IMG/VR virus record: IMGVR_UViG_3300020360_000085
Location: 32,001 to 96,000 of that record
Strand: one strand, 5' to 3'
Length of the DNA stretch: 64,000 nucleotides
DNA from: a virus
Lineage: Duplodnaviria > Caudoviricetes
The position numbers and the translations under genes were made by a program. A model generated the notes under the pieces. It saw only the letters and a list, made by a program, of their open reading frames with translations, was not told where the DNA came from and did no database searches. This document shows positions 49,693-64,000 of this stretch, in pieces (position 1 is the first letter of the stretch; every line of letters begins with the position of its first letter).

Positions 49693-50123
49693 TGAAAACA
49701 ACGGCGGCAGGAGTTGTATTTCTTGCCAAAGATACTGGCAGATGCTTATTACAACTCAGAGAAGGAACAAAACGATTTAATCATACCTGGGGATTCTGGG
49801 GAGGTATAATTGAAAAAGGAGAAACTCCTTTTGAATGCATACAAAGAGAACTAGATGAAGAAATTGGATTTATTCCAGAACTTCAAAAACTTAATCCAAT
49901 AGACGTTTACCAAAGCAAAGATAAAAATTTTTATTACTACAGTTTTGTATATGTTGTAGATAATGAATTTATGCCCCCAAAACTAAATGGCGAAAGTGCC
50001 GGTTATGCCTGGGTAAACATAGGACAATGGCCTAAACCTCTTCATAATGGTTCTAAAATCACTCTTTTTAAAAATGGTGGAACAGAAAAACTGCACACTA
50101 TATTAGAAATCAATAAAGAATAA
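49692..50123 (+). CDS. Nudix hydrolase
   Basis: Nudix box GIIEKGETPFECIQRELDEEIG. Confidence 0.9.
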   Translation: MKTTAAGVVFLAKDTGRCLLQLREGTKRFNHTWGFWGGIIEKGETPFECIQRELDEEIGFIPELQKLNPIDVYQSKDKNFYYYSFVYVVDNEFMPPKLNGESAGYAWVNIGQWPKPLHNGSKITLFKNGGTEKLHTILEINKE

Positions 50124-50131
50124 ATAATAGT

Positions 50132-50764
50132 ATGACCAAAGGCGAAATCATAGATTTTGAGGTCTTGCGAATACAAAATGATTTGGATAATTTTCAGCGA
50201 ACTAACACGATACCACATACTATATTAGAAGGCACATTTGATATAGAAGAAATAAAGGATGTTTTTTTAAATAAACTTCCTCCTAAGTATAAAAAAATAG
50301 GTAAAAGACTTGTAGATGAATACTACGAAAAAATAAATGAAAATTTAGAGTCTTTAAAAACTGCCATGAAAAGGGACTACGACAGAGTCTTTAAAAATAT
50401 GGCATCTGCTCATGAAAGTTTTAGATATAAGCAGACAATGAACCTATATAGACCTGGAATTAATCCAATTAGAGCATTGTATTATCAGACCCGTGACGTG
50501 AGCAGGAGATATAATCCTGAGCACCCTTACCACTACTGGTTAATAGACCTTGTTACAGATTTAGAATATAACAATATTATATTAGATGCTTTAAAAAAGG
50601 ACATAAGCAAACTTGAACGTATAATAAAAAGATATTATTACCCTATAACTAAAATTGATGATAATATTCCTTTAGAATTATTTCATGCTAAACAGCAACT
50701 AAAGGACTTTAAACATTATTACAAATATTTCAGAGATATAAAACATTGGAGACCAGACGAGTAA
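50132..50764 (+). CDS. Hypothetical late protein
   Basis: 210 aa; AATAAATA 5 nt before ATG. Confidence 0.7.
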   Translation: MTKGEIIDFEVLRIQNDLDNFQRTNTIPHTILEGTFDIEEIKDVFLNKLPPKYKKIGKRLVDEYYEKINENLESLKTAMKRDYDRVFKNMASAHESFRYKQTMNLYRPGINPIRALYYQTRDVSRRYNPEHPYHYWLIDLVTDLEYNNIILDALKKDISKLERIIKRYYYPITKIDDNIPLELFHAKQQLKDFKHYYKYFRDIKHWRPDE

Positions 50765-51346
50765 TTATTTAAATGTGGTTGCTTTCATGCTACAAACAAT
50801 TCTATTTTGCTTATTGTCAGAATTTACAGCACTATGCCAACTAGTTGGGCCTGTTCTAAATAAAAATAAACTTCCAGGATTTCCTCCAACAATTTTATAA
50901 GGTTTATCTGCATCTGGATTATCATATATTTCTGTGCCAAAAACATATTCAGGATTACAATAAATTACACCTCTTACAAAAGGATTATTTGGAGTTTCTT
51001 CGTCTCCATAATAGTCATTATGCATTTGTAATTTTTGATTTTTACTTATCATATTTTCTACACCATAAAAATATTTACAATTGATGTCCCAAACATTATT
51101 AATTGCTTCAACAATATCTTTATTTTTTTGTCTAATTTTTTCTATAATATCCAGATAAGCAGATACATGTTGGGGACCATCATTATTAAATTCTTTTTGA
51201 GATAAATTTTCCTGTAACTTAATATAATTATCAAATATATTTTTATTATCTAAACCTGTAATAAAATTTTCTATTACAATATATTCAAAAGGATATGTGT
51301 TTAAATTTTCCCTACAAATTTTATCAATATTTTGTACTTGAACCAT
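50765..51346 (-). CDS. Putative 2OG-Fe(II) oxygenase
   Basis: MHND (HxD), SWHS, RIV; PFEYIVIENF N-terminus typical of the family. Confidence 0.65.
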   Translation of the reverse strand: MVQVQNIDKICRENLNTYPFEYIVIENFITGLDNKNIFDNYIKLQENLSQKEFNNDGPQHVSAYLDIIEKIRQKNKDIVEAINNVWDINCKYFYGVENMISKNQKLQMHNDYYGDEETPNNPFVRGVIYCNPEYVFGTEIYDNPDADKPYKIVGGNPGSLFLFRTGPTSWHSAVNSDNKQNRIVCSMKATTFK

Positions 51347-53415
51347 TATTTAGAAGTTTTCCTTTCAACACCGTCCCATTCTCCTGCAGGCATAGGTTGT
51401 TTTATTCTTTGTGCATATAAATTTGCAAGAGTATTATTCCAGTCATGTTCTTTTATTACTTCTATTTGATGAGCACATTCGGCCCATTCCCTATTTTGAT
51501 AAGCATCTACCATTCTGTTTATTACTCTAACCTCTTTTGTGTCTTTTAAAATTGTATAAATTGTTACAGGTGCAGTTTGGCCTTTTACTGCAATTTTATC
51601 TAACATTACAAGTCCTTGTGGTGAAACTATTTGTTTTAATGTATGTTCTGTAAACATAAAAAATACACCATACTCTTTGGTTTGTGCTTCTAAACGAGCC
51701 GCTAAATTTACACTATCTCCTAAAACTGTATAATCAAAACGTTGATTAGAGCCCATGTTACCTACTACGGCATCACCTGTGTTTATTCCTATACCAACAC
51801 CCAACTCCATTAATCCATCTTCTTTAAGTTCTTTATTAAGTTTTTTAAGTTCTACTTCCATTTCTTGTGCTGTCTCAATAGCCAATTGGGCATGATTATC
51901 TACATCAAGTGGAGCATTCCATATTGCCATTAAGGCATCTCCTATGTATTTGTCTATTGTGCCTTCTTTTTGCATAACAAGATCTGTCATAGGTGTCATA
52001 TATCTGTTAATTAATTTTCCTAAACCTTCAGGATCTGTTTTAAATTGTTCTGATATTGGAGTGAATCCACGAATATCTGAAAACAAATATGTCATTGTTC
52101 TTGTATCTCCGCCTAAACGTAATAGACTTGGATCTTTTTGTAACTTTTTAACCATTGCAGGTGCAAGATAATGTTCGAATTGTTTTTTAATTTGTTCACG
52201 TAATTTATATTGTTTGTAAAAGTTATTAAATGCCGCCTGTGTAAAAACTAAAAATCCACTTAGTACAGGGAAAGTAGCATCTAATAAAACTAAATCGCTT
52301 GTATATTTGTAAACACTATAATAGGATATTCCCCCTAATACTGCAAGTGATATAGGTGCAGTCCAAAGTAATGGCAGTTTATAAACTGCTAAAGCAATTA
52401 GAATCATAGTCAAGAAAGCAACGACCAACTCTGTGACAGCACTTAATTGGCTTCTTGTTATGTTACTGCCGTCTATAATGTTTTGTATCATATGAGCCTG
52501 TATATGTTGTGGATAAAGATTACCACGTGGTGTAGGTACAGGGTTTGCAACACCCTCAGCAGTAACACCTATGACTACCCATTTACCCATTAAATCTGGA
52601 ATACTATCAGCACCTTCATATTCTATTTCTTCAAAAGAATTATTAAAACGTATATAAGCAGTACCATCTGGTTGTGTAACTACAGGAGGAAAAGGAGGAA
52701 TAGCCACTTCTTGTATTCCTATTTCAGATGTTTTTATCATATAACTGGGTTTACCTGTGTGTACCCTTAACATCTCTACTGCAAAACTAGGATAAATTTT
52801 GTCTTCTACAGTAATAGCAAGAGGGTATGTTCTAGTTTGATTATCTGGTTGAGGGGCAGATGCTAAAACACCTTTACCATTACTTACAACTTCCAATATG
52901 GGAATATTAGTAACTAAATTAGGCCATTTAAGTAAATAATCTTTTGCTGGTACAGGACCTATTGTACCTGTACCTATATGAGGACCTGTACTTTTTATTC
53001 CTTTAACACTTGGCGTTTGACTTAAAACATTTACATTTACAGGATTTTTTCTAGCACCTGGAATGTTAATAACATTTTGTTGTAATATTCCTGCAAAACT
53101 TTCGTCTCCCTGAAATCTATCTGCTTCAGGAAACATAATTGTCCAACCTACGGGACCACTATTTTTCATAGCAACGTCTACTACAAGTTGTGCATAATAT
53201 TGCCTTGGAAATGGATACTGTCCGTATTTTGCTAAACTTTTTTCGCCAATGTTTATTAATACAACATTATCACTTTGTTTTACTTCATCTAATTGTTGAT
53301 AACTGTCAAAAACTTGACTTCTAAGACTTTGTAATGGTGTAGGATCTACTATTCTTAAGCCAAGTAAAAGTGCAATAGATAGGACCACTGCATAACCACT
53401 ATATAACCATTTCAT
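51346..53415 (-). CDS. CHASE2-domain membrane adenylate cyclase (class III)
   Basis: TM + CHASE2 (YPFPRQYYA, ILFPEADR-like, IGVTAEG) + 3 TM + cyclase FSDIRGFT, KYIGDALMA, DYTVLGDSVNLAARLE. Confidence 0.92.
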   Translation of the reverse strand: MKWLYSGYAVVLSIALLLGLRIVDPTPLQSLRSQVFDSYQQLDEVKQSDNVVLINIGEKSLAKYGQYPFPRQYYAQLVVDVAMKNSGPVGWTIMFPEADRFQGDESFAGILQQNVINIPGARKNPVNVNVLSQTPSVKGIKSTGPHIGTGTIGPVPAKDYLLKWPNLVTNIPILEVVSNGKGVLASAPQPDNQTRTYPLAITVEDKIYPSFAVEMLRVHTGKPSYMIKTSEIGIQEVAIPPFPPVVTQPDGTAYIRFNNSFEEIEYEGADSIPDLMGKWVVIGVTAEGVANPVPTPRGNLYPQHIQAHMIQNIIDGSNITRSQLSAVTELVVAFLTMILIALAVYKLPLLWTAPISLAVLGGISYYSVYKYTSDLVLLDATFPVLSGFLVFTQAAFNNFYKQYKLREQIKKQFEHYLAPAMVKKLQKDPSLLRLGGDTRTMTYLFSDIRGFTPISEQFKTDPEGLGKLINRYMTPMTDLVMQKEGTIDKYIGDALMAIWNAPLDVDNHAQLAIETAQEMEVELKKLNKELKEDGLMELGVGIGINTGDAVVGNMGSNQRFDYTVLGDSVNLAARLEAQTKEYGVFFMFTEHTLKQIVSPQGLVMLDKIAVKGQTAPVTIYTILKDTKEVRVINRMVDAYQNREWAECAHQIEVIKEHDWNNTLANLYAQRIKQPMPAGEWDGVERKTSK

Positions 53416-53433
53416 ATCTATATTTATCGTAAG

Positions 53434-53469
53434 AAAAACCTCCCTATAATTAGATTATAGAGAGGTTTC
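53434..53469 (-). terminator. Rho-independent terminator
   Basis: AAACCTCTCTATAAT-CTA-ATTATAGGGAGGTTTTT; G.U pair on the minus strand. Confidence 0.75.
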
Positions 53470-53573
53470 ATTCTAATCTAATAGTTTTAAAGACGTCTAT
53501 TAATCGTCTGGCAAATTGTGGCTTTTAGTTTTAAGAGTCTCTAAACCACCGGGCAATCCGGGAAATCGCTCTA

Positions 53574-54107
53574 TTAGTTATTAGCAAATTCTGATATTAA
53601 ACCATTTGCTAAATCATATTGGATAGCAAGACTTTCATATAGTTTGTAATATTCTTTATCACTATTAGGTCTATGTTCGCTACCATAAAGATCTGCATCT
53701 ACAAAGTTCCAGTCTATTGAACCGTCTCTGTTAGTATTACCTTCATCACTTACTGCTTTATTAAATGCTTTTGCAAATTCAGGTCTAAATTTAGCAACTC
53801 TGTAATTAACACTTTTAGTATAAAATCCTAAATTTTCAAGTTGTAAAACTAAACTGTTCATACCAGGAAATTTTCCTGTATCTTCATACTCACCTAAAGT
53901 AATTTGCATTGGATCATCAATAACATAGTATTCGTCATCTCCAAGTATAAAATCTAAATTAGCAATAAACTCTTCAACAAGTTTTTTACCTTTTTTGAAT
54001 GCTTCAGCATCTCTAGTTCTATATTGGAAGTCATGTATTTCATGACCTTTAAGTAAGCCTGTTGGCTCTGGTTGATCGCCTAAAATTCTGTAATTTAATG
54101 TTGACAT
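53574..54107 (-). CDS. Hypothetical early protein
   Basis: 177 aa; SD AGGAG; sigma70 promoter. Confidence 0.75.
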   Translation of the reverse strand: MSTLNYRILGDQPEPTGLLKGHEIHDFQYRTRDAEAFKKGKKLVEEFIANLDFILGDDEYYVIDDPMQITLGEYEDTGKFPGMNSLVLQLENLGFYTKSVNYRVAKFRPEFAKAFNKAVSDEGNTNRDGSIDWNFVDADLYGSEHRPNSDKEYYKLYESLAIQYDLANGLISEFANN

Positions 54108-54139
54108 ATAACTCCTACCTTATTTGTTACTATATAAAT

Positions 54140-54167
54140 ATTATAGCAAAAAACTAGAAATTGTCAA
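54140..54167 (-). promoter_or_regulatory. Sigma70-type promoter
   Basis: TTGACA-N16-TATAAT. Confidence 0.8.
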
Positions 54168-54184
54168 GCCTTTTTTATATATTT

Positions 54185-54898
54185 TTAACCTGCAAATGCA
54201 CGTTCTAACATAAAATCTCCAGACTCTCCTGTGTTGCCTTCGTGCCATCCTAAGTTTGTAAATAGTTCTCTGCAATCTTTATTCATTTCTGGAGAACCGC
54301 ATACCATAACTGCGTCTCTGGTTTTATCTAAATTACTGCCTAAAACATCTGGAATATAGTTCCAAAATCTACCAGGTCTTAAATATTTTTCTCTAGTTAC
54401 TGTTTCTATATAATTAAAGTTAGGATAATCTAAACTGTTTAGTTTTTGCTTATATGCTAGTTCATTTACATTTCTTACAGTATGAAACAAGTAAACATTA
54501 TTAAACTTTTCATAGGTCTCAAAATCATGTGCAATACTTATAAAAGGTGCGATACCTGTGCCAGTAGATAGCATTACTAAATTTTGTTTTTTATTTAAAT
54601 AATCTATAACTAGACTGCCAGTACATTTCGGATTTACAATAACCTCTTCTCCAATTTGTACATTTTGTAATTTTTCTGTAAGGGGACCATTTGGAACTTT
54701 GATACTTAAGAACTCTAAATGCTCGTCATAATTTGTACTTACAATACTATATGCTCTAAGTATTGGTCTAGGATCTACATCGAGACCCATCATACAAAAC
54801 TCTCCATTTTTAAATCTAAAACTTTTATCTCTTGTGGTTTTAAAACTGAAAAGTCTATCTGAATAATGTTTGACTTCTGTAACTGTCTCTTTGTGCAT
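54185..54898 (-). CDS. fpr: Ferredoxin-NADP+ reductase (bacterial Fpr type)
   Basis: RAYSIVS (FAD), GPLT, STGTGIAPF, MVCGSPEM, LERAF. Confidence 0.92.
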   Translation of the reverse strand: MHKETVTEVKHYSDRLFSFKTTRDKSFRFKNGEFCMMGLDVDPRPILRAYSIVSTNYDEHLEFLSIKVPNGPLTEKLQNVQIGEEVIVNPKCTGSLVIDYLNKKQNLVMLSTGTGIAPFISIAHDFETYEKFNNVYLFHTVRNVNELAYKQKLNSLDYPNFNYIETVTREKYLRPGRFWNYIPDVLGSNLDKTRDAVMVCGSPEMNKDCRELFTNLGWHEGNTGESGDFMLERAFAG

Positions 54899-54919
54899 AC
54901 AGATATTTATTTTATAGAT

Positions 54920-54952
54920 AAAATTTCCCCTGCCATTTCTGACAGAGGAAAT
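54920..54952 (-). terminator. Rho-independent terminator after the lipoprotein frameshift extension
   Basis: ATTTCCTCTGTCA-GAAA-TGGCAGGGGAAAT-TTT; two G.U pairs form only on the minus strand. Confidence 0.75.
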
Positions 54953-54974
54953 GTGTTTTGTAAAAAGTTAAAAC

Positions 54975-55142
54975 TTATTCACATTCTTTAGGATTTTTAG
55001 AACAATACTCCATTACCTTATTAAGCAATTTTACTTGTTCAATAAGTTCTGAAATGTCCTCATCGTCCTGCTCACCCTCATCTGAGGATTTTTTGTCTTC
55101 CTTCTTAGGTAGGAAAACTTTTGCTAAGAATGAGCGTTCTAC
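54975..55142 (-). CDS. Start-less 55-codon frame: candidate -1 frameshift extension of the lipoprotein
   Basis: VERSFLAKVFLPKKEDKKSSDEGEQDDEDISELIEQVKLLNKVMEYCSKNPKECE*; entered from A_AAA_AAG at 55142-55148. Confidence 0.6.
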   Translation of the reverse strand, partial: VERSFLAKVFLPKKEDKKSSDEGEQDDEDISELIEQVKLLNKVMEYCSKNPKECE

Positions 55143-55438
55143 TTTTTTTCTTCTTCTGGTTTTTTATCTTTGGAATCTTCTTGAAGTTCATCAGTTTGTT
55201 CATCAATTTCATCTGAAACTGTTTTAACAACACCTGCTCCTACTTCTAAAGCAGTCGTAGAAATATCAGAAACATCTTCTGCTACTGATACTGCCACATC
55301 TGATGCAGTTCCAACTACCACGTCTACTGTGTTAGTTGCTAACTCTTTACCGCCCTCGATTACTGCTCCAACTGAGGCACAACCTTGTGCGAAAATTACA
55401 AAGAATAAACCTAAGAACATATTTTTTAGTCCTTCCAT
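55139..55438 (-). CDS. Lipoprotein (99 aa)
   Basis: Start MEGLKN with SD AAGGAG; lipobox FAQG-C20; late promoter 55489-55496 with 5' hairpin GTGTAATA/TATTACAC. Confidence 0.8.
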   Translation of the reverse strand: MEGLKNMFLGLFFVIFAQGCASVGAVIEGGKELATNTVDVVVGTASDVAVSVAEDVSDISTTALEVGAGVVKTVSDEIDEQTDELQEDSKDKKPEEEKK

Positions 55439-55500
55439 TTTATTCTCCTTATATAAGGTGTAATAAGCCATCTGCTATATTACACTAATATTTATCGGAA

Positions 55501-56667
55501 TTAAAACATCATATTAAGTTTTTTGTAAAACTTATTGTAATGTTTAGACCCGTCTTTAAAATCATTATAATGATCTCGATTATATTCTAAAACATCATAC
55601 ATTTCGTATAACATTTCAGTCAACTCTTGATGTGATGTATTTGATAATTTTTGATATAGATTATATAATTTATTTTTTCTCGAGTTATGATCCTTGTCGT
55701 TATCATAACTTTCGTCCCACCATTTATAAAATGTTTTAAATCCACAATCTTTAAGATAGGATAATGCTCCAGGTTGTGCATGTAATATAAATGGATTTGC
55801 CATAACTATAGCCTTGGTACATTTATCTGTCATATCTAATTCATAATCGTTATAATCTTTACATGTATGTTCAAAATATGTTTCACTAACAAAATGTATA
55901 TAAGTATCTAAAAATGCTTGTCTTTCAGTATCACTTTTAAGTCTTGGTAAAAAAGGGTCGCTGGAATTTGTATTATGTAAGTCATATATCCATGGTAAAC
56001 TATTTAAAAGTTCATCACTTAAATTTAATTCGTCTTTATAACTTTCTATAGACATATCTTTAAATGGAGTATAACAAGAAACTAAATTTTGTTGCTTTAA
56101 ATTATTATCAAAAATAAATTTACATAACTCTGCTCTATGTTTATAAGGCTTACCCATAAAAGTTAATAATTTTTTAGGTCGCTGTATTTTATTTTTTATT
56201 TGCTCATATTGTTTATCTATAATATCCTCAGGCTGACATAATGGCATAAAGACTTGATATGGCAATGTAGCAACATTATACTCCTTGGGCTCAAAACTTT
56301 TTATGTTTCCTACTATAAGTATTACATCATTTTTATTTAAATTATATTTTAGCATGGTATTACAAATTATTTTATGTGTAAAATCTCTGTTACCAAAATA
56401 TCTATATGTAATATCATAACTTTCACTAGTAAAATCAAAAAGTAATTTACATTTGTTATCCTTTATGTCTTTTAAAATATCTTGTGGAATATTATAAAAG
56501 TATTCTTTTGCTTTTAATATTAATTGTTTATCTCGTTGAGGAGGACATGTGATTTGCATATCTATTTGAATAGGATACACATACTTTTGATTTGTATTAT
56601 TTTTAATGGGTAATCGTAGAAGATCTTCTACTGAAGAATTCATTTGACCTGTATGAGTAAACAACAT
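55501..56667 (-). CDS. Hypothetical protein, putative glycosyltransferase-like family (paralog of 28722..30008)
   Basis: Start moved to ATG 56667, 5 nt after CATAAATA; GFKTFYKWWDESYD motif. Confidence 0.6.
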   Translation of the reverse strand: MLFTHTGQMNSSVEDLLRLPIKNNTNQKYVYPIQIDMQITCPPQRDKQLILKAKEYFYNIPQDILKDIKDNKCKLLFDFTSESYDITYRYFGNRDFTHKIICNTMLKYNLNKNDVILIVGNIKSFEPKEYNVATLPYQVFMPLCQPEDIIDKQYEQIKNKIQRPKKLLTFMGKPYKHRAELCKFIFDNNLKQQNLVSCYTPFKDMSIESYKDELNLSDELLNSLPWIYDLHNTNSSDPFLPRLKSDTERQAFLDTYIHFVSETYFEHTCKDYNDYELDMTDKCTKAIVMANPFILHAQPGALSYLKDCGFKTFYKWWDESYDNDKDHNSRKNKLYNLYQKLSNTSHQELTEMLYEMYDVLEYNRDHYNDFKDGSKHYNKFYKKLNMMF

Positions 56668-56693
56668 AATAATATTTATGTTGCATTGTAAAA

Positions 56694-57575
56694 CTAATCT
56701 TGTGTAACTGAAATAGAACAACCACCTAAGGTTGCACAGGTTTGTGTCAATGTATATGTTTGTCCTACGGAGTTGTGTGATTGATTTAGATATAAATCTG
56801 TTCCATAACTACCATATAAATTAATAGTTGCCGTATGAGCACCATTTTTTCTTTGTTTTATCCAAACATCATTATTATCATTATAGATATTTAGGTTTAA
56901 TGTTTTACTTCCATTTTGTAATTGTCCAGCATAAACTTCGTTACCGTCACCAAATATGTTTACATACATGTTGTGATTTATACTGCTACTATCTTGTTTT
57001 TGGCCTGCTTTAAAGTCATTGTTGTCGCCATGTATATCTAATCGCACAAGATTTCCACCTGGTTCATTATAATCATATGACCAAGAAGTGTTTCCGTTAC
57101 TAGAATTTTTATCTAAAAACCAACCTTGACCAACCATTACATCATTACTATTACCTTCTAAATGAAATTCTACTTTGCTTTCATTACAACTGTTGTAACT
57201 ACATTTTTGCCATATTTGTAATGTGTTACTATCTCCGTCTATATCTCCGCCTTGATCATGTCCTTGACCCCAAGCACTTGAATAACCTATATAAAAATTA
57301 TTACCTTCTTGTAATATTGCTATTTCGTTTGATTGTCCATCTAAACTAAAGTTAATGTCATTATCATATCCATCTTGTAATACTCTTAAAATATTATTAC
57401 TAGAATCTGCACTTACTATACCTAAATCTATATCAATAATATTATTATACCCTTCTTGATTGGCTTCAATAATTACATTATCTCCTGCTTGTTCAATTAA
57501 AACTTCCTGGTCATCTGCTAATAAAACAGATGGTATTAATAATAATCCTGCTAATATGTTTCTTAATATTTTCAT
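56694..57575 (-). CDS. Secreted curlin-repeat-like protein
   Basis: Signal peptide; repeated Q-x-G-x-x-N units (EQAGDN, NQEGYNN, LQDGYDN, LQEGNN, HGDNND, FGDGNE). Confidence 0.7.
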   Translation of the reverse strand: MKILRNILAGLLLIPSVLLADDQEVLIEQAGDNVIIEANQEGYNNIIDIDLGIVSADSSNNILRVLQDGYDNDINFSLDGQSNEIAILQEGNNFYIGYSSAWGQGHDQGGDIDGDSNTLQIWQKCSYNSCNESKVEFHLEGNSNDVMVGQGWFLDKNSSNGNTSWSYDYNEPGGNLVRLDIHGDNNDFKAGQKQDSSSINHNMYVNIFGDGNEVYAGQLQNGSKTLNLNIYNDNNDVWIKQRKNGAHTATINLYGSYGTDLYLNQSHNSVGQTYTLTQTCATLGGCSISVTQD

Positions 57576-58748
57576 CTAATTCTGTATAATTGTTATTACA
57601 CTTCCCTCACAACTGTTTAGGCACATTATTGTAGAACCTAAATCTTTATCTGTTACAAATATTTGTGCAGATGTACCCTTTTTAAACTTTAAACTAACGT
57701 AATTATTAGCCTGCCTTAAAAAGAACACTTTACCATCAACATCTGGTAAAATATTAAATTGGTTATCTGCTTGTAATCCAAAATTTCTATCTATTAATCT
57801 ATCACTAAAGTTTTGTTCCTGTTGGCCGTCCAAAGCATCTGCTTCTTCTATAATCTCCAACAAATCTCTCAAAAAGTCAACTTCTAAGAAATTAATATCT
57901 AATTCTGTAAATTCTAACTCCTGTTCGGCTTCTGCCGCCAAATCTTGTCCTTCTAAAAAGTCAATGTCTAAGTCTGAAAAGTCTAACAATCCACCATCTC
58001 CTTTAAGTGCTTCTTGTTGTTCTTCTTCTGCCTGTACAATCTCTTCAGGTTTACTCACAATAAACATATTGTCTATCATATTCAAATCCAGGTCTACTAA
58101 AACAACTGGATTTGTTGGAGGTGTTTCAAACGTACTAACCATTACAGCCTGAAATGCCTCTTCAAGTATTACTGTACCACCGTCATTAGTCACAGTTATA
58201 CTCCCTGAAGGTCTACAACCTTCTTCTAATTTTACCCTATCATTACAATTTGCATCTGGTAATAATATTACTAAACTTCTACCCAGTTCGTCAACTGTAG
58301 TGGTAAAATCAGTTCCCCTAATACCAATAGTTGCTGTAGGCGTTTCTATCATAATATTTTCTTTAGGAACAAGTCCTAAACCGCCTGTTGCAAATCGAGC
58401 CGTGCCTTGAACAAAGTTCATAGCCATTTTGCTCTTGCTTGGATCAGGATCATATACATACTCTGTAATCTCTACAACTGTATGTTCTGTCAAACTAATC
58501 TGTGTTTGGTCTACAAATTCGATTTTTAATCTACCGTTTTCGGTTTCTACATTATCATAACTTTGTACACCTGTGTCTAAAATAGCATCAAGTTGTTCTC
58601 CTGACGTCCTATAAATGGCGCCAGGAGTACCACTTTGCTCCGAAACGCCGCCAATCTCTTCAGCGGCGTTCAGAATAGGTGTTAGCAAAAATGCCAGAGC
58701 GAATAATAATTTAGTCGGTCTGTTTAATGCTAACTGATGCATTTTCAC
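57576..58748 (-). CDS. Secreted FecR-domain protein
   Basis: Signal peptide; VETENGRLKIEFVDQTQISL...QGTARF...TPTATIGIRGT; acidic C-terminal part. Confidence 0.82.
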   Translation of the reverse strand: MKMHQLALNRPTKLLFALAFLLTPILNAAEEIGGVSEQSGTPGAIYRTSGEQLDAILDTGVQSYDNVETENGRLKIEFVDQTQISLTEHTVVEITEYVYDPDPSKSKMAMNFVQGTARFATGGLGLVPKENIMIETPTATIGIRGTDFTTTVDELGRSLVILLPDANCNDRVKLEEGCRPSGSITVTNDGGTVILEEAFQAVMVSTFETPPTNPVVLVDLDLNMIDNMFIVSKPEEIVQAEEEQQEALKGDGGLLDFSDLDIDFLEGQDLAAEAEQELEFTELDINFLEVDFLRDLLEIIEEADALDGQQEQNFSDRLIDRNFGLQADNQFNILPDVDGKVFFLRQANNYVSLKFKKGTSAQIFVTDKDLGSTIMCLNSCEGSVITIIQN

Positions 58749-59526
58749 TGTCTAAGTCTACGTTAATTACACCTTTACATGCTGGTGTACAGGTTGCTGT
58801 CATATCTTGAGTGAACTGAAAATCTCCATCACTACCGTTTAACACAACTGTTAAACTTTGACCGCTATTACCACTTTGCTTAGTAGCAAACTTGTTGTCG
58901 TCTCCTGTTATTTCCATATTCCATACAGCATTATCTGTATTTACTATGATGCCAGACATTGAACTTGTTCCAGTACAATTTGTACCACAACTTTCGCCTT
59001 GGCCTTGAGCCGCCCAAACGTTGCTATTTGTAAATGAACCATCGAAATCATTTCGATCGCCAAGTATTACTAAGTCAAAATTTAAATATTCAGCACTTGC
59101 AGAACTACCAATGTCAACATCAAAAAGGTTTGAATCACCTTGAATGTCAACAAGCATATCTGCTTCGTCACTGCTACCTGAACTACCAATATTCATGTCC
59201 CAGACATTACTATCACCTAAGAAGTAAAAATCTAAAACAGATGATCCACTACCATCAAGGACCCAACTACCAAACATGTCGTTATTATTACCGTCTTGTA
59301 TCAAGTCTAAAATTAAACTTGAACCAGTAAGAGTAAGATCACTGTTTTGTGATGCGTCACCTGATAAAGTGTTTCCATAGCCAGCCTGTAAGATGGTCAA
59401 TGTGAGGTTATCACCTTCTTGATCCAATAACACTTCGTTATCGTCTGCAAGAATTGGACCAGCCATAAGGCATGCAAAAGCGAAGACACTGACTGCTAAT
59501 TTACTTAAAAATTTACTTGTCTTCAT
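58711..59526 (-). CDS. Secreted curlin-repeat-like protein
   Basis: Start MKTSKF; signal peptide; DQEGDN, LQAGYGN, IQDGNNN, LGDSN, QGDSN, TGDDN repeats. Confidence 0.7.
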   Translation of the reverse strand: MKTSKFLSKLAVSVFAFACLMAGPILADDNEVLLDQEGDNLTLTILQAGYGNTLSGDASQNSDLTLTGSSLILDLIQDGNNNDMFGSWVLDGSGSSVLDFYFLGDSNVWDMNIGSSGSSDEADMLVDIQGDSNLFDVDIGSSASAEYLNFDLVILGDRNDFDGSFTNSNVWAAQGQGESCGTNCTGTSSMSGIIVNTDNAVWNMEITGDDNKFATKQSGNSGQSLTVVLNGSDGDFQFTQDMTATCTPACKGVINVDLDSENASVSIKQTD

Positions 59527-60550
59527 TATTTTCTCCAATATTGGTTATACTATCATTCTTTAATAGAATGCGTTTCCATAAAGGTATTGAACTAGGGTCT
59601 TTGGAAAATGCTTCGACATCCTCCGCGTCCGGAAGAACGCCTGAATCTTTGAGACTCATCCAGTATGCCTGCTCTTGAGCGGCTACTTGATCGTCCCAAT
59701 CTTCTGGATAAACAATCTTCCAATATCCTCTTTCATCACCTTGAGTAATAAGTTCTAACACCGCGGCCTCGATCGCTGATCGGACTGCGTATGTTACACT
59801 TTCATTCTGTGTCATTCCGCTCTCTAGTTCAAGTAATTTGGTATCCATATCTAAAAATCTAAATACATCTCCTGCTTGACCTGAACTTAATACGGTCTTG
59901 CTTGTTTGCACGTTGAGTATCACTTCGCCAGTGAGTGTGCTTACTGCACGAAGTGAAACCACAATGCTATCCCTACGATACTGGTTTGTTGTACCAATAC
60001 CGAGATATCTTGCCCCTGTACCTCCTGTTTCAATATTAGTGTCATATCCTACAATACCACCTTCTAATATCATACCAGCAAATAACATTGGCTGTAGTTC
60101 TTGAAACTCGTCTTTACCTGCCTGTTTGGCTTGCTCAGATCGAGTGCTTCGAACTATTTGTCTTTCTCTAACTAAGTTATCTAAACCTAGTCCTCTTTCA
60201 ACTACTCTAAACCAAGTTCCTTTTGGATTTTCTCCTGAACCTGCCGCCTTTAGAGCGTCTATTAATAAACTTTTTGCGTCTTGAGTAACTGCTGTACTAA
60301 AACTTGCAACATTATCTTGGCTTTTCCTTTGTCCTGTTCCATCTCCAAATTGATAAACAGCAACCACAGGCATGTTTTCTGCTGGAGGCAGATACCTTAA
60401 CTTCCTGTACGTAGGTAGTTCTACTTTTTTAGGCTCTTCAACACATTCTAAAAAATCTGTTTTACATGCCTGATCGCCTGGTATAGCGATACTGGCACAC
60501 CCGCTTAAATATAACACACCTATAAATGCTATTAATATTTTTTTATACAA
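59513..60550 (-). CDS. csgG: Curli secretion channel CsgG
   Basis: Lipobox LSGC; VAVYQFGDGTGQRK, FSTAVTQ, FRVVER.GL.NL..ERQI.R, EGGIVGYD, LR.VST.TGEV. Confidence 0.92.
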   Translation of the reverse strand: MYKKILIAFIGVLYLSGCASIAIPGDQACKTDFLECVEEPKKVELPTYRKLRYLPPAENMPVVAVYQFGDGTGQRKSQDNVASFSTAVTQDAKSLLIDALKAAGSGENPKGTWFRVVERGLGLDNLVRERQIVRSTRSEQAKQAGKDEFQELQPMLFAGMILEGGIVGYDTNIETGGTGARYLGIGTTNQYRRDSIVVSLRAVSTLTGEVILNVQTSKTVLSSGQAGDVFRFLDMDTKLLELESGMTQNESVTYAVRSAIEAAVLELITQGDERGYWKIVYPEDWDDQVAAQEQAYWMSLKDSGVLPDAEDVEAFSKDPSSIPLWKRILLKNDSITNIGENNEDK

Positions 60551-60551
60551 C

Positions 60552-61079
60552 TTATCCGCCTGATATTTGTCCTATCCCTATTGGAATCTCAATCGTTGTT
60601 ATTGTTCCATCAGGATCAACAATGGTTAAAACAATTACCTCTAATCCGTCTGCATTTGTAGTTACAGTATAAGAAACATTATTGCCTTCTATTGTAAATG
60701 CGCCACTTGTAGCACCTGTACATTGAACAACTGTTGCTGGATCACAAAACATACTATCTACTAAACCTTTAGAAATTTGAGAGTATATTCTACTTTCTAA
60801 GTTTCTAATAAATTTATTAATTGTACTGTTAGCATCTTCTCTTTCAGCACGTCTTAATGCTTCTTCTATATCACTTTTAATTTTATCTCTACGGCCTTTT
60901 TCCTGGTTTTCTATTGTTAGATAATGAGCACCAGTTCCTGAGCCACTAAAACTTGGATTTTTAAATTTGTGCTTTATTTCGTCTGCACTTAATTCTGCAA
61001 CAAACAAAACACCCATAATTATGAATAAACTTCCTATTATTGCATTTGAAAGTCTATTATTAATTTTTGCTTCATTCAT
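60552..61079 (-). CDS. csgF: Curli assembly factor CsgF-like
   Basis: Signal peptide followed by FKNPSFSG (CsgF FxNPxFxG); adjacent to csgG. Confidence 0.8.
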   Translation of the reverse strand: MNEAKINNRLSNAIIGSLFIIMGVLFVAELSADEIKHKFKNPSFSGSGTGAHYLTIENQEKGRRDKIKSDIEEALRRAEREDANSTINKFIRNLESRIYSQISKGLVDSMFCDPATVVQCTGATSGAFTIEGNNVSYTVTTNADGLEVIVLTIVDPDGTITTIEIPIGIGQISGG

Positions 61080-61080
61080 T

Positions 61081-61374
61081 TTAATTTTCCTGCTCTTTTA
61101 TTTTTTCAAGAGCCTCCTTTTCCTCGGCATCTTTCAAGACTTCCTGTCTTGCTCTATATTCGAGAACAACATTTACTTTTTGTTGTAGCCTTATAAGATC
61201 TTGATCAAGCATTCTAAATTGATCAATAACTCTTATAAGTTCCATGTGCATTTTACTAAGTTCTGGTTTTATATCATTGTTGATATATTTCCATACATAG
61301 TAAATAAAATATCCTAATCCAACAACTGCAACCACAGGAAAGCCAAAGTCAGCAACTAATTTTGCTACATCCAT
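61081..61374 (-). CDS. Small membrane protein, YvrJ/BhlA-like (TM plus coiled coil)
   Basis: VADFGFPVVAVVGLGYFIYYVW then coiled coil. Confidence 0.6.
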   Translation of the reverse strand: MDVAKLVADFGFPVVAVVGLGYFIYYVWKYINNDIKPELSKMHMELIRVIDQFRMLDQDLIRLQQKVNVVLEYRARQEVLKDAEEKEALEKIKEQEN

Positions 61375-61676
61375 TAGTCTCTCCTTGCGTCTACTTTACC
61401 ATCCTCTACGAAATTTTCTGCTCTAGCAACTCTGTCTATATCTGGTCTTAAATCCAAGGCACTACTTACCAATAGATCTATTTTAACCATTTCGTTACTC
61501 ATGACTCGACCTCGAGTCTGAAGGGATTTGCAAAAACCAGTTAGGGTTTTCACTTGGCCAACGACGCCGGCCATTAATTGTTTTATAATTATAAAAATAA
61601 AGGCCCCCATTGCTAATGCTCCAGCAATAGGCAACCCTACTTCTGCAATTAATTGAAATATTTTTTCCATTTGCAC
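61374..61676 (-). CDS. Small membrane protein, YvrJ/BhlA-like, paralog of the next gene
   Basis: IAEVGLPIAGALAMGAFIFIII then coiled coil; TAATG coupling; late promoter 61725-61732. Confidence 0.6.
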   Translation of the reverse strand: MQMEKIFQLIAEVGLPIAGALAMGAFIFIIIKQLMAGVVGQVKTLTGFCKSLQTRGRVMSNEMVKIDLLVSSALDLRPDIDRVARAENFVEDGKVDARRD

Positions 61677-61759
61677 ACTCTGTTTGTTTGTTTTTTAGCG
61701 AGTGCTTTACTCACCTACCACATGTATTTATCTTGTTTGCATAAGAAAATTTGCTCATG

Positions 61760-61785
61760 AAAAAAGGAGCCAAGGCTCCTTTTCT
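61760..61785 (-). terminator. Rho-independent terminator after the tail fibre
   Basis: AAAAGGAGC-CTTG-GCTCCTTTTTT. Confidence 0.85.
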
Positions 61786-61801
61786 CTGAATTTGTTTTTT
61801 G

Positions 61802-64000
61802 TTACATCATGTTTACAAGAACTTCAATAACTGCTTCTCCGCCTTCACTAGAACCAATTGCTTTACCAATTATTCTTCCGGCTACTGCATTATTGTCTGC
61901 TTTTGCATGTCCTTTAACACTTGAACTAACCATTAAGTCACCTTTTGCAATAGGTCCTGTAACTTTACAAGGCACTCTTCCACATAATGCTACATAGTGT
62001 CCATCTGCTTCACTGTTCATCATATATGCTGGCTCTGTACTTATAACACCTGCAACTGCATGATGTGAATCATCTTCACATGCTATAACTTCTAGATCTC
62101 CACCAAAGCAAACAACATCGCCTGGTACTAAATCTTCTGGTCCTGAGTATTTCTCAGCCAAGTCCGCATATCTGGCCTGTGTTGCTGTACCTTGGAAAAG
62201 GTTTGCAAAAATATCACCACTACTGTCTCTAGCAACAACTTTACTTGCTGTTGCGGCCGTTGTTGCATCTACGGCTATATCATCTGCATTAACCGTAATG
62301 TACGAACCTGCACCAACATTGACTGTTACTCCACCTGATGATCCACCACCTGTAAGACCTGAACCTGCAGTTACTCCAGTAATATCACCAGTATTAGTTG
62401 TATATCCAAAACTTGTAATCTTGTCATTTACTGCGGCCGCAGTCATTAATACAGTATCTGAATCACTAAATGATTCTGAACCTGTTTGTATTGCGGCATC
62501 ACCAAAGTCACTAACTGCTAAATCAGGCAGTCTAGCACTTGCTAATGTTCCTGAACCAATATTACTTGCATTTGTTGTATCAGTTGTTGCTGAACTGGCC
62601 AAACCACTAACAGCACCACTGGCTATTGCTATATCTGTTGAACCTGCGGCTGTTAATTGACCCTGTGCATTAACTGTAAATGTTGCTACTGCTGATGCAT
62701 TACCATAACTTGCGGCTGTTACACCTGTGTTAGTAATACTAATAGCACCTGAACTTGATGTAATACCTGTAGATCCTGTAATAAGTGCTTGTACTTCACT
62801 GTTTGAAACTGCTACTGCATCTGCGGCTACGTCTATACCATAACCAGCAATAACATTAAGTGTAACTGCTCCAGAAGTTCCGCCACCTGTCATACCAGTA
62901 CCTGCTGTTACTGACTCTATATCACCTGCATCGTTTGTAAAACTAAATACACCTGTTGAACTATTATAACTTAAATCTCCACTAGCACTTACGGCCGCTC
63001 TGGCTCTTGCATCAGTAAAGTATAAATTAGTTGAACCTTCTGTTATTTCATCTGAGTTGTCTTTTGTTGCAATTTGAGCCGCGATATAGGCCTTAACTGA
63101 TTGCTGTGATGGTGCTCTTGTGGCACTATCTGTACCAAAGCCATCTTCATCAATAATATTATTTGCTATTCTGGCGTCTGCTCTAGCATCTGTATAGTAC
63201 AATGCTGAAGAATGTTCTGTTACATCTTCTGTTGTAATACTTGCATTAATGTAAGCATCTACTCTGGCATTTGTATAATATAAGTTTGTGCCTTCTGCAA
63301 GGTCTGAAGTGCTTGATGATAAATTAACATAAGTGGAACCATCGTTTGTAAATTGCCATTTATCAGATGTTTCGTTATATTGGAAAAATACATCATCACT
63401 TGAACCTCTGTTTACTTGTAAACCAGCATTTTCAGTAGGGGAGCCTGAAGCGTCACTGTTTAGTACCATAAGGTTATCTGCAATACTTAATGATGTTGTA
63501 TTAACAATAGTTTGTGTACCTGAAACTGTTAGGTTTCCGCTTACTACAACGTCTGCAAATGTTACATCACTTGAAGTAGCAACTGCCTGTCCTATTGCAA
63601 TTTCTCCTGAACTCACTGTAACACCTGTACCACCAGTTACTCTGGCATCTATGGCACTATTTGCTCTTGCTACAGTATAATATAAATTAGTCTGTTCTGG
63701 TACATCTGCTGTACTAACCTGATTAGTGCCTGTTCCAAAATCAATATGAGTATCATCTATACCGTCAGCCTTTAGGGTAACTGCGCCTGATGATACTGTA
63801 AAATGATCACTACTAAAAGAAGCAATACCTTTATTGGAATCTGTTGCATCTTCACCTGATACAACACCGGAAGATACATCTATACCTTCTCCTGCTGTTA
63901 TTAATGCCTGTACTTCACTATTTGTTAATTCTATATCATTTGCATTTGCAGTAATACCATAACCGCCCACAACGGTTACTGTAACTGTACCTGAAGTACC
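61802..64000 (-). CDS. Tail fibre protein, 3' part (continues beyond the right edge), with C-terminal intramolecular-chaperone/peptidase G2-like domain
   Basis: Frame open to 64000; repeats (D/E)xxEGxTNLY(Y/F)TxAR and GDIxxVTAGxGxTGGG; C-terminal YADLAEKY...GRVPCKV...KGDL...IIGKA. Confidence 0.85.

What the first reader, a model, noticed from the sequence alone, without database searches (positions are those of the whole stretch)
56694..61732. Complete-looking curli/type VIII secretion operon in a phage, with two curlin-like cargos and FecR
Seen: one tightly coupled operon behind a late promoter: two YvrJ/BhlA-like membrane proteins, CsgF, CsgG, curlin-like protein, FecR protein, curlin-like protein, all with signal peptides or TM helices. 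No CsgE is recognisable in the window. Established: CsgG/CsgF form the outer-membrane pore that exports amyloid curlin; csgG/csgF have been reported in marine pelagimyophages, so their presence alone is not new. Inference: here both putative substrates are recognisable. The infected cell may be made to export a phage amyloid late in infection (aggregation, particle attachment, surface masking against competing phages), or the fibres may decorate virions.
Basis: partly seen in the sequence, partly recalled or inferred. Interest (0 to 1): 0.8.

Follow-up and report, generated by a model that had tools for sequence, protein, structure and literature searches.

The report
Known phage curli-export cassette, jumbo phage
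A large marine phage carries a complete-looking set of genes for exporting curli-type protein fibres from the infected cell, but this gene layout was already published for SAR11 phages in 2022, so it is a further example and not a discovery.

Summary
Seven tightly coupled minus-strand genes (61676 to 56694) lie behind a terminator and a T4-type late-promoter motif. They encode two small membrane proteins, CsgF, the lipoprotein CsgG, a curlin-repeat protein (CurA), a secreted FecR-domain protein and a second curlin-repeat protein (CurB).

Both cargos are predicted beta-solenoids. They are homologous to each other, and their families fall into Pfam Curlin_rpt. CurB's best structural match is a solved curli subunit. 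The order is the same in 40 related viral contigs, and CurA is present in every contig that reaches its position. A CHASE2 adenylate cyclase lies 3.3 kb downstream.

The novelty claim fails. Wittmers et al. 2022 (PMC9599517) described this layout, "HK"-CsgF-CsgG-CsgA/B-FecR-CsgA/B-cyclase, in SAR11 myo- and podophages. This scan has also noted it before, on other DNA from at least 37 genomes.

New points here:
- The backbone resembles PA5oct-type jumbo phages, not HTVC008M.
- The "HK" and YvrJ/BhlA labels for the small proteins have no HMM support.
- Four genes, each with its own late-promoter motif, lie between CurB and the cyclase.
- The three secreted proteins share a short C-terminal motif that is not statistically significant.

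The function remains untested.

The parts
61754..61790 (-). Intrinsic-terminator-like hairpin plus U-run that ends the upstream tail-fibre gene
   Evidence: -19.2 kcal/mol, z -4.53, none of 200 shuffles as stable. Sequence.
61725..61732 (-). Late-promoter-like motif GATAAATA, 55 nt upstream of the first gene
   Evidence: 23 ATAAATA sites on this strand, about 17 of them intergenic and 12-56 nt before a start codon. It is the only one ahead of the seven-gene block and none lies inside the block. Inference from the T4 late-promoter consensus.
61374..61676 (-). Small bitopic membrane protein 1 (TM1; the ATG at 61670 is the likelier start), paralogue of TM2
   Evidence: (phrog_18771, E 5e-23). No Pfam family. 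No histidine at all in this copy.
61081..61374 (-). Small bitopic membrane protein 2 (TM2), N-terminal helix followed by a charged, repetitive tail read by eye as a possible coiled coil
   Evidence: (phrog_18771, E 4e-27). YvrJ and BhlA HMMs give no hit. Nearest named Atlas clusters are YvrJ 0.87 and BhlA 0.85, a lead only.
60552..61079 (-). CsgF homologue with signal peptide and conserved N-terminal FxFxNPxFxG...GA motif
   Evidence: PF10614, 2.9e-11; a profile of 12 orthologues has E. coli CsgF (6l7a_J) as its best PDB hit, E 0.009, aligned over the N-terminal motif.
59513..60550 (-). CsgG outer-membrane channel lipoprotein (lipobox LSGC), with a C-terminal extension of about 60 aa
   Evidence: PF03783, 4e-48; E. 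coli CsgG 3x2r, E 1e-45 over residues 8-281. In the constriction loop the Phe is kept, Asn is replaced by Ser and Tyr by Gln.
58711..59538 (-). CurA: curlin-repeat beta-solenoid cargo with signal peptide
   Evidence: Curlin_rpt E 2e-4, over cut-off when summed; 19 of 39 family members hit Curlin_rpt; AF2 pLDDT 76.5, pTM 0.71, 20 strands; beta-helices Z 17.1; curli CsgA 8c50 Z 16.8.
57576..58748 (-). Secreted FecR-domain protein (signal peptide, FecR domain at residues 66-158, acidic repeat linker, conserved C-terminal Cys pair and terminal strand)
   Evidence: PF04773, 1e-10; phrog_37870, 1.7e-64; weak LipL45 match; more than 6,800 relatives.
56694..57575 (-). CurB: second curlin-repeat beta-solenoid cargo with signal peptide; the faster-evolving paralogue
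   Evidence: 11 of 30 family members hit Curlin_rpt; hhalign to the CurA family, 98.5%, E 1.5e-15; AF2 pLDDT 73.8, pTM 0.76; best match Pontibacter curli CsgA 8c50, Z 20.1, next 16.0.
55139..55471 (-). Small acidic lipoprotein with its own late-promoter motif; kept between CurB and the cyclase in most relatives
51346..53415 (-). CHASE2-sensor class III adenylate cyclase, the likely signalling partner of the FecR-domain protein.
   Evidence: CHASE2 1.8e-31; Guanylate_cyc 4.4e-19; topology: TM, periplasmic CHASE2, TMs, cytoplasmic cyclase; present downstream in 24 of the 40 viral loci, plus HTVC008M; own late motif 12 nt before the ATG.

Best explanation
This is a late-transcribed copy of the viral type VIII secretion (curli-type) cassette known from SAR11 and OM43 phages, here in a marine jumbo myophage.

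Proposed mechanism:
1. All components cross the inner membrane by the host Sec pathway.
2. CsgG is lipidated and forms the outer-membrane channel.
3. CsgF docks its conserved N-terminal motif in the channel.
4. The two curlin-repeat proteins CurA and CurB pass through unfolded and fold outside into stacked beta-solenoid units that can polymerise into an amyloid-like fibre on the infected cell.
5. The secreted FecR-domain protein, with the CHASE2 adenylate cyclase a few genes downstream, most likely forms an envelope-sensing arm that produces cAMP.

Shown: gene identities, operon structure, the late-type promoter motif, predicted solenoid folds, conserved synteny, purifying selection, and sequence-identical contigs in metatranscriptomes.

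Inferred: secretion through CsgG, fibre formation, the FecR-cyclase partnership and any ecological effect (aggregation, particle attachment, blocking of other phages).
For: Identity of the parts:
- Pfam and NCBIfam hits for CsgF, CsgG and FecR.
- CsgG aligns with E. coli CsgG over 274 residues.
- The CsgF N-terminal channel-binding motif is conserved.

Cargos:
- Curlin_rpt hits only these two ORFs in 250 kb.
- 19 of 39 CurA relatives and 11 of 30 CurB relatives hit Curlin_rpt directly.
- CurA and CurB are homologous.
- The AF2 models are all-beta strand-turn-strand stacks.
- The best or joint-best structural match is the solved curli subunit 8c50.

Conservation:
- The same gene order is found in 40 IMG/VR loci and in HTVC008M, and CurA is present in every locus that reaches its position.
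- Median dN/dS is 0.16 for CurA, 0.19 for FecR and 0.35 for CurB.

Transcription unit: terminator, a single late-type motif, and no internal motif.

Field data:
- Near-identical DNA occurs in marine metagenomes of at least 8 studies.
- Identical contigs over CurB, FecR, CurA, CsgG, CsgF and the cyclase occur in 4 metatranscriptome runs.

Literature:
- The same layout and expression were reported by Wittmers 2022.
- A secreted FecR-domain protein paired with a CHASE2 sensor kinase is a conserved bacterial operon tied to biofilm control (PMC5192318).
Against: - There is no experiment on any phage T8SS. Buchholz et al. saw no clumping of Melnitz-infected cells.
- Neither cargo on its own clearly passes the Pfam threshold. 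CurB is far below it.
- Profile searches against the PDB gave nothing for CurA and only E 0.043 to CsgA for CurB, among chance hits.
- Foldseek found no significant PDB match.
- The 8c50 alignments have high rmsd (about 9 A), and generic beta-helices score almost as well for CurA.
- CsgE and an N22-like Gly-rich targeting segment are both absent, so how cargo is recognised is unknown.
- The FecR/CHASE2 complex prediction gave no answer.
- RNA-library contigs cannot prove transcription or show the strand.
Confidence: 0.6

Rival explanations
1. The CsgG (with or without CsgF) pore is the functional unit, and fibres do not matter. It acts as a lysis-timing pore (pinholin- or secretin-like) or as an uptake channel. 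The two small membrane proteins at the head of the operon would then be holin-like lysis factors.
For: Proposed in PMC9004378 and PMC7029224. The operon starts with two small bitopic membrane proteins whose nearest named language-model neighbours are YvrJ and BhlA holin-like families. Transcription is late. No CsgE gate was found.
Against: Two signal-peptide curlin-repeat genes are kept under purifying selection in every relative whose contig reaches them. The CsgF channel-binding motif is conserved. The YvrJ and BhlA HMMs find nothing. An outer-membrane pore cannot depolarise the inner membrane (established knowledge).
Confidence: 0.15
2. CurA and CurB are virion or tail-fibre accessory proteins (beta-solenoid fibres decorating particles), placed next to the tail-fibre genes for that reason.
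For: The operon directly follows the tail-fibre cluster in all 40 related loci. It has a late-type promoter. Beta-helices are common in tail spikes.
Against: Both proteins have cleavable Sec-type signal peptides, whereas virions assemble in the cytoplasm. They are co-operonic with an outer-membrane export channel. A strong terminator separates the operon from the fibre gene. In HTVC008M the cassette is not next to the fibre genes.
Confidence: 0.07
3. The cassette is mainly a trans-envelope signalling device. The CsgG/CsgF/solenoid proteins form a surface antenna whose state is relayed by the FecR-domain protein to the CHASE2 cyclase, so the output is cAMP rather than a fibre matrix.
For: FecR and the CHASE2 cyclase co-occur with the cassette in the viral loci that reach far enough downstream and in HTVC008M. 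FecR-domain plus CHASE2 sensor pairs exist in bacteria. The three secreted proteins share a C-terminal Cys-pair and terminal-strand motif that is found in no other ORF of the record.
Against: The complex prediction gave no answer. The shared motif is not significant by hhalign or HMM. No cAMP receptor was identified. Wittmers reports that the cyclase is not always present.
Confidence: 0.15

Closest known systems
Viral T8SS (curli) module of pelagiphages (Wittmers et al. 2022, PMC9599517; HTVC008M; pelagimyophage MAGs of Zaragoza-Solas 2020, PMC7029224)
   Same: Same gene order: one or two small upstream proteins ('HK'), CsgF, CsgG, curlin-repeat protein, FecR, a second curlin-repeat protein and a CHASE2 adenylate cyclase. 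No CsgE, CsgC or CsgD. The HTVC008M locus shows the same domains.
   Different: - The backbone is not HTVC008M-like. TerL is 35% identical to HTVC008M but 58% to Pseudomonas jumbo phage PA5oct, and a 340-kb relative carries the cassette.
- Cassette proteins are only 27-50% identical to those of HTVC008M.
- Four extra genes, each with its own late-promoter motif, lie between CurB and the cyclase.
- CsgG has a C-terminal extension of about 60 aa.
- The second curlin has no PA14 domain.
Methylophilales phage Melnitz csgGF (Buchholz et al. 2022, PMC9004378)
   Same: CsgG is 43% identical. Both hosts are marine streamlined heterotrophs.
   Different: That paper reported no csgA/B and proposed a lysis-timing pore. 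Here two cargos are clearly present, and the CsgF N-terminal motif argues for a normal CsgG:CsgF complex.
Bacterial curli system CsgBAC/CsgDEFG of E. coli and Salmonella; long multi-repeat CsgA of Pontibacter korlensis (PDB 8c50)
   Same: CsgG lipoprotein channel, CsgF adaptor, Sec-exported Q/N/G-rich repeat subunits, and a predicted beta-solenoid whose best match is 8c50.
   Different: - No CsgE, CsgC or CsgD.
- No Gly-rich N22-type leader: the mature cargos start directly with a repeat.
- Each cargo has about 10 irregular beta-arches, against 5 in E. coli CsgA.
- The constriction-loop Tyr and Asn are replaced.
- FecR and the cyclase are additions.
Bacterial secreted FecR-domain protein plus CHASE2 sensor pairs (for example the Burkholderia BiofilmReg operon, PMC5192318)
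   Same: A signal-peptide FecR-domain protein encoded beside a membrane protein with a periplasmic CHASE2 domain.
   Different: The output domain here is an adenylate cyclase, not a histidine kinase. There is no LysM domain. The pair is embedded in a T8SS cassette of a phage.

Membership tests
CsgG (PF03783) outer-membrane curli channel | Sequence membership over the full domain | tested here: met
   163.9 bits against a cut-off of 20.8. E 1e-45 to E. coli CsgG over residues 8-281.
CsgG (PF03783) outer-membrane curli channel | N-terminal lipoprotein signal (lipobox Cys) | tested here: met
   ...VLYLSGC... at residues 12-18, aligned with the E. coli lipobox.
CsgG (PF03783) outer-membrane curli channel | Constriction-loop residues Tyr51/Asn55/Phe56 (E. 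coli numbering, recalled from the literature) | tested here: inconclusive
   Phe is kept, Asn aligns with Ser and Tyr with Gln, and the loop is one residue longer.
CsgF (PF10614) | Sequence membership and the N-terminal FxFxNPxFGG-type motif that binds inside the CsgG barrel | tested here: met
   44.1 bits against a cut-off of 25.8. The motif KFKNPSFSG..GA is conserved in 12 orthologues and aligns with E. coli CsgF in 6l7a.
CsgF (PF10614) | Physical 1:1 complex with CsgG | not tested
Curlin (CsgA/CsgB, Pfam Curlin_rpt PF07012) | Tandem Q-x-G-x-x-N-type repeats recognised by the family model | tested here: inconclusive
   CurA scores 16.3 bits in a protein scan and 20.3/21 bits in a genome scan, against a cut-off of 20.7. 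CurB scores 11 bits. However, 19 of 39 CurA relatives and 11 of 30 CurB relatives match directly, and the two families are homologous.
Curlin (CsgA/CsgB, Pfam Curlin_rpt PF07012) | Sec signal peptide | tested here: met
   Hydrophobic N-termini followed by ...ILA/DDNE and ...LLA/DDQE. Read by eye; no SignalP run.
Curlin (CsgA/CsgB, Pfam Curlin_rpt PF07012) | Beta-solenoid of stacked strand-turn-strand units | tested here: met
   AF2 models have 19-20 strands and pTM 0.71-0.76. Curli subunit 8c50 scores Z 20.1 for CurB (top) and Z 16.8 for CurA (joint top).
Curlin (CsgA/CsgB, Pfam Curlin_rpt PF07012) | Genetic linkage to csgG/csgF | tested here: met
   Same operon here and in all related loci that reach the cargo genes.
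Curlin (CsgA/CsgB, Pfam Curlin_rpt PF07012) | CsgG-dependent secretion and amyloid polymerisation | not testable with these tools
   Needs expression, Congo red or ThT assays and EM.
FecR-type anti-sigma regulator | Cytoplasmic anti-sigma domain plus a transmembrane helix ahead of the periplasmic FecR domain | tested here: not met
   Only a cleavable signal-peptide-like N-terminus precedes the FecR domain at residues 66-158. It is a secreted FecR-domain protein, not a FecR regulator, so the link to iron regulation has no support.
Histidine kinase (label given to the small upstream genes in PMC9599517) | HisKA/HATPase domains and a conserved phospho-acceptor His | tested here: not met
   No Pfam or NCBIfam kinase hit. 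The proteins are only 97-100 aa long. TM1 has no His here, and the TM2 His is not conserved.
YvrJ (PF12841) / Holin_BhlA (PF10960) | Match to the family model | tested here: not met
   No match at E <= 10 anywhere in the record. Atlas feature scores of 0.87 and 0.85 are below the level that counts.

The most novel reading that the evidence does not exclude
The secreted FecR-domain protein may be a third fibre-associated component rather than a detached regulator. It shares a C-terminal Cys pair and a terminal phi-x-phi-x-Q strand with both curlins. It could cap, nucleate or sense the fibre at the CsgG/CsgF port and relay that state to the CHASE2 cyclase. A jumbo phage would then give its host a surface-contact sensor that sets cAMP late in infection.
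Probability: 0.12. Interest if true: 0.7.

Novelty: new member of a known kind. Interest (0 to 1): 0.3.

Why it matters
The cassette is very common in ocean viromes: the FecR protein alone has more than 6,800 relatives, and Wittmers estimates the module at about 0.1% of viral proteins. Its function has never been tested, so it remains a good experimental target. This copy shows that the module also sits in a PA5oct-like jumbo myophage lineage, always directly after the tail-fibre genes and under late control. That widens the known range of viral carriers. The published labels "histidine kinase" and "ferric citrate regulator" are not supported by the sequences. As a discovery it adds little, because the architecture and the hypotheses are already in print.

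Tried and rejected
- Complex prediction of FecR (residues 31-240) with the CHASE2 periplasmic domain (24-325): score 0.01, no answer. This counts neither for nor against binding.
- hhalign of the FecR family against the CurA and CurB families: E 0.27 and 0.15, not significant. The CurB alignment did pair the two C-termini.
- HMMs built from the curlin C-termini did not find FecR among the 358 ORFs of the record. The shared C-terminal motif therefore rests only on a regular expression.
- Profile searches against the PDB: nothing for CurA. For CurB, CsgA 8enq scored only E 0.043, among chance CRABP2 hits.
- Foldseek against the PDB for CurB: no match at E <= 0.001, only generic beta-helices.
- phmmer of CsgF alone against the PDB: nothing.
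- YvrJ, BhlA and CsgE HMMs on the whole record: nothing.
- Atlas search with the FecR C-terminus: no usable hit.
- Genome-contig scan with the FecR profile: only two low-GC contigs in MAGs that carry the whole cassette and look like phage DNA, so it gave no bacterial context.
- Rfam on 50000-64000: no family.
- PADLOC: only a generic cyclase likeness for the adenylate cyclase.
- The strict T4 late box TATAAATA is not upstream of the operon and is not enriched in the window. The looser NATAAATA is the motif that tracks gene starts.


Full report
**What is there.** On the minus strand between 61676 and 56694 lie seven ORFs that abut or overlap by 1-38 nt.
- Two paralogous small membrane proteins of about 100 aa (TM1, TM2). 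Both belong to phrog_18771, which has no known function.
- A CsgF homologue (PF10614, 44.1 bits) and a CsgG homologue (PF03783, 163.9 bits; NCBIfam CsgG E 2.6e-51).
- A 275-aa Q/N/G/D-rich protein (CurA).
- A 390-aa FecR-domain protein (PF04773, 42.4 bits).
- A 293-aa Q/N/G-rich protein (CurB).

Every product has an N-terminal hydrophobic segment. CsgG has a lipobox. CsgF, CurA, FecR and CurB have signal-peptide-like ends.

**Transcription unit.** Upstream, the tail-fibre-like gene (61802-63970; phrog tail fibre) ends in a strong hairpin with a U-run (-19.2 kcal/mol, z -4.5). A GATAAATA motif follows, 55 nt before TM1. The strict T4 box TATAAATA is neither present there nor enriched in the window. 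The looser ATAAATA occurs 23 times on this strand. About 17 of these are intergenic and 12-56 nt upstream of a start codon, often exactly 12 nt. It therefore behaves as the phage's late-promoter element.
- None lies inside the seven-gene block.
- Separate copies precede the next four transcription units: an unknown 388-aa ORF whose real start is the ATG at 56667, a small lipoprotein, a ferredoxin-reductase-like gene, and the adenylate cyclase.

**The channel parts are canonical.**
- CsgG aligns with E. coli CsgG over residues 8-281 (E 1e-45). In the constriction loop the Phe is kept, while Asn aligns with Ser and Tyr with Gln.
- A profile of 12 phage CsgF orthologues has E. coli CsgF from the CsgG:CsgF complex (6l7a) as its best PDB hit. 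The aligned stretch is the N-terminal FxFxNPxFxG..GA segment.
- From my knowledge of those structures, that segment is the part that sits inside the CsgG barrel. This argues against the suggestion in PMC9004378 that phage CsgF has drifted away from CsgG.

**The cargos are curlin-type solenoids.**
- By eye, both carry repeated phi-x-phi-x-Q-x-G-x-x-N-x-phi units at spacings of 23-29 residues.
- Singly they sit at or below the Pfam threshold. CurA scores 16-21 bits against 20.7; CurB scores 11 bits.
- The Curlin_rpt model hits only these two ORFs in the whole 250-kb record.
- 19 of 39 CurA relatives and 11 of 30 CurB relatives match the model directly.
- The two families are homologous to each other (hhalign 98.5%, E 1.5e-15).
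- AlphaFold2 with these alignments gives all-beta strand-turn-strand stacks. CurB has pLDDT 73.8, pTM 0.76 and 19 strands. CurA has pLDDT 76.5, pTM 0.71 and 20 strands.
- In an exhaustive structural comparison, CurB's best match is the solved curli subunit of Pontibacter korlensis (8c50: Z 20.1, 241 residues, 19% identity, rmsd 9.0 A; next hit 16.0).
- For CurA, 8c50 (Z 16.8, 20% identity) ties with SufD-type beta-helices (Z 17.1).
- Foldseek and PDB profile searches were not significant. The fold class is therefore well supported, while family membership rests mainly on the transitive Pfam evidence and the gene context.
- The mature proteins begin directly with a repeat (ADDNEVLLDQxGDN). There is no Gly-rich N22-type leader, which fits the absence of CsgE.

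**Conservation.** Forty IMG/VR loci with CsgG at least 70% identical show the same order: tail-fibre genes, TM1, TM2, CsgF, CsgG, CurA, FecR, CurB, usually the small lipoprotein, sometimes the reductase, then the CHASE2 cyclase.
- Where tblastn missed CurA, the ORF is nevertheless present and clearly orthologous.
- Rough dN/dS values are 0.16 (CurA), 0.19 (FecR) and 0.35 (CurB). dS is saturated, so these are approximate.
- Near-identical DNA occurs in marine metagenomes from at least eight studies.
- Contigs from four metatranscriptome runs match CurB, FecR, CurA, CsgG, CsgF and the cyclase without mismatches. This is compatible with expression but is not proof.

**FecR and the cyclase.**
- The FecR-domain protein lacks the anti-sigma and transmembrane parts of true FecR. 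It is a secreted protein with a very conserved N-terminal half, an acidic repeat linker and a conserved C-terminus.
- A 689-aa protein at 51346-53415 has one TM helix, a periplasmic CHASE2 domain, further TM helices and a class III cyclase domain.
- The same pair flanks the cassette in HTVC008M.
- A secreted FecR-domain protein next to a CHASE2 sensor kinase is a conserved bacterial operon linked to biofilm formation (PMC5192318).
- I therefore read the two as a sensor pair. The complex prediction gave no answer, so this remains an inference.

**A shared C-terminal motif.**
- CurA, CurB and FecR all end in a Cys pair (C-x3-5-C) followed by a phi-x-phi-x-Q-x(0-2) terminus. The terminal strand occurs in only 7 of the record's 358 ORFs. 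The combination with a Cys pair was found in no other ORF. The regular expression, set at C-x3-4-C, caught CurA and FecR. CurB's pair, spaced C-x5-C, was added by eye.
- The terminal strand is kept in all lineages examined.
- The Cys pairs of CurA and FecR are both missing in HTVC008M and in two distant contigs, while CurB always keeps its pair.
- Neither hhalign nor HMMs make this significant. It is a lead only.

**The small proteins.**
- The published label "histidine kinase" is not supported. There are no kinase domains, the proteins are only 97-100 aa long, TM1 has no histidine here, and the TM2 histidine is not conserved.
There is only a sub-threshold language-model resemblance.
- They are paralogous bitopic proteins with a conserved G-[FL]-P motif in the helix. 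The charge distribution suggests an N-out, C-in topology. Their function is unknown.

**Comparison with what is known.**
- Zaragoza-Solas 2020 reported CsgF/CsgG plus unidentified neighbours in pelagimyophages.
- Buchholz 2022 reported csgGF without cargos in Melnitz.
- Wittmers 2022 then described the whole layout, including one or two CsgA/B genes, FecR and the cyclase, in both myo- and podophages. They reported its global abundance and its presence in metatranscriptomes, and proposed the aggregation, superinfection-exclusion and uptake hypotheses.
- This scan has also noted the cassette 51 times in at least 37 genomes, several of them followed up with the same verdict.

**What differs here.** The carrier is not an HTVC008M-type phage.
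- TerL is 58% identical to the Pseudomonas jumbo phage PA5oct group, 52% to a 469-kb Sinorhizobium phage, and only 35% to HTVC008M.
- The tail sheath points the same way.
- A 340-kb, 91%-complete relative carries the same cassette.
- The window's record is 250.5 kb at an estimated 66% completeness.
- Among GenBank phages, CsgG occurs in HTVC008M and Melnitz, plus one unannotated 1.5-kb Salmonella phage fragment.
- I found no paper on a T8SS in a jumbo phage.

**Verdict.** The feature is real and complete-looking, and its parts were correctly identified. It belongs to a known, published kind. The new elements are modest: the carrier lineage, corrected labels for the accessory genes, the inserted late genes and a weak shared C-terminal motif.

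Noticed in passing
window 30172-31755 and 37101-39905; whole record G000: The phage backbone resembles PA5oct-type jumbo myophages (TerL 58%, sheath 41%), not HTVC008M (TerL 35%). Relatives reach 340 kb. The host is unknown and GC is about 33%.
   Followed up: partly
window, minus strand, e.g. 53427, 54910, 41435, 46876, 31767: NATAAATA motifs often sit exactly 12 nt before the ATG of late genes, which implies very short leaders. The strict TATAAATA is rare in the window.
   Followed up: partly
window 55501-56721: The 406-aa ORF listed from a TTG at 56721 more likely starts at the ATG at 56667, 12 nt after its own ATAAATA motif at 56679. It has no family match, and a homologue was seen in only one related locus (L007).
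   Followed up: partly
window 55139-55471: A small acidic lipoprotein is conserved between CurB and the cyclase in most related loci and may belong to the module. Other first-reader notes propose a -1 frameshift at its end; I did not check that.
   Followed up: no
window 59513-59700 (CsgG residues about 282-345): CsgG of this lineage has a C-terminal extension of about 60 aa with a conserved PLWK-x-ILLK segment. E. coli and HTVC008M CsgG lack it.
   Followed up: no
L043 (JAAXIF010000105.1) and L044 (CAZOIZ010000007.1): Contigs binned into Sphingobacteriales and Rhodobacterales MAGs carry the whole cassette, have 35-36% GC and show one-strand gene order. They are probably phage contigs binned by mistake, so they are unsafe as host evidence.
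   Followed up: partly
window 58960-59020 (CurA residues about 175-195): A low-confidence loop in CurA carries a second Cys pair (..SCGTNCTG..). Several orthologues lack it as a block, both Cys together, which suggests an optional disulfide loop.
   Followed up: no
L001 2605-3930 (HTVC008M): The second curlin-repeat protein of HTVC008M carries an N-terminal PA14 (carbohydrate-binding type) domain. The copy in this window has none.
   Followed up: no
window 54185-54898: A ferredoxin-NADP-reductase-like gene with its own late motif lies between the cassette and the cyclase, here and in several relatives.
   Followed up: no
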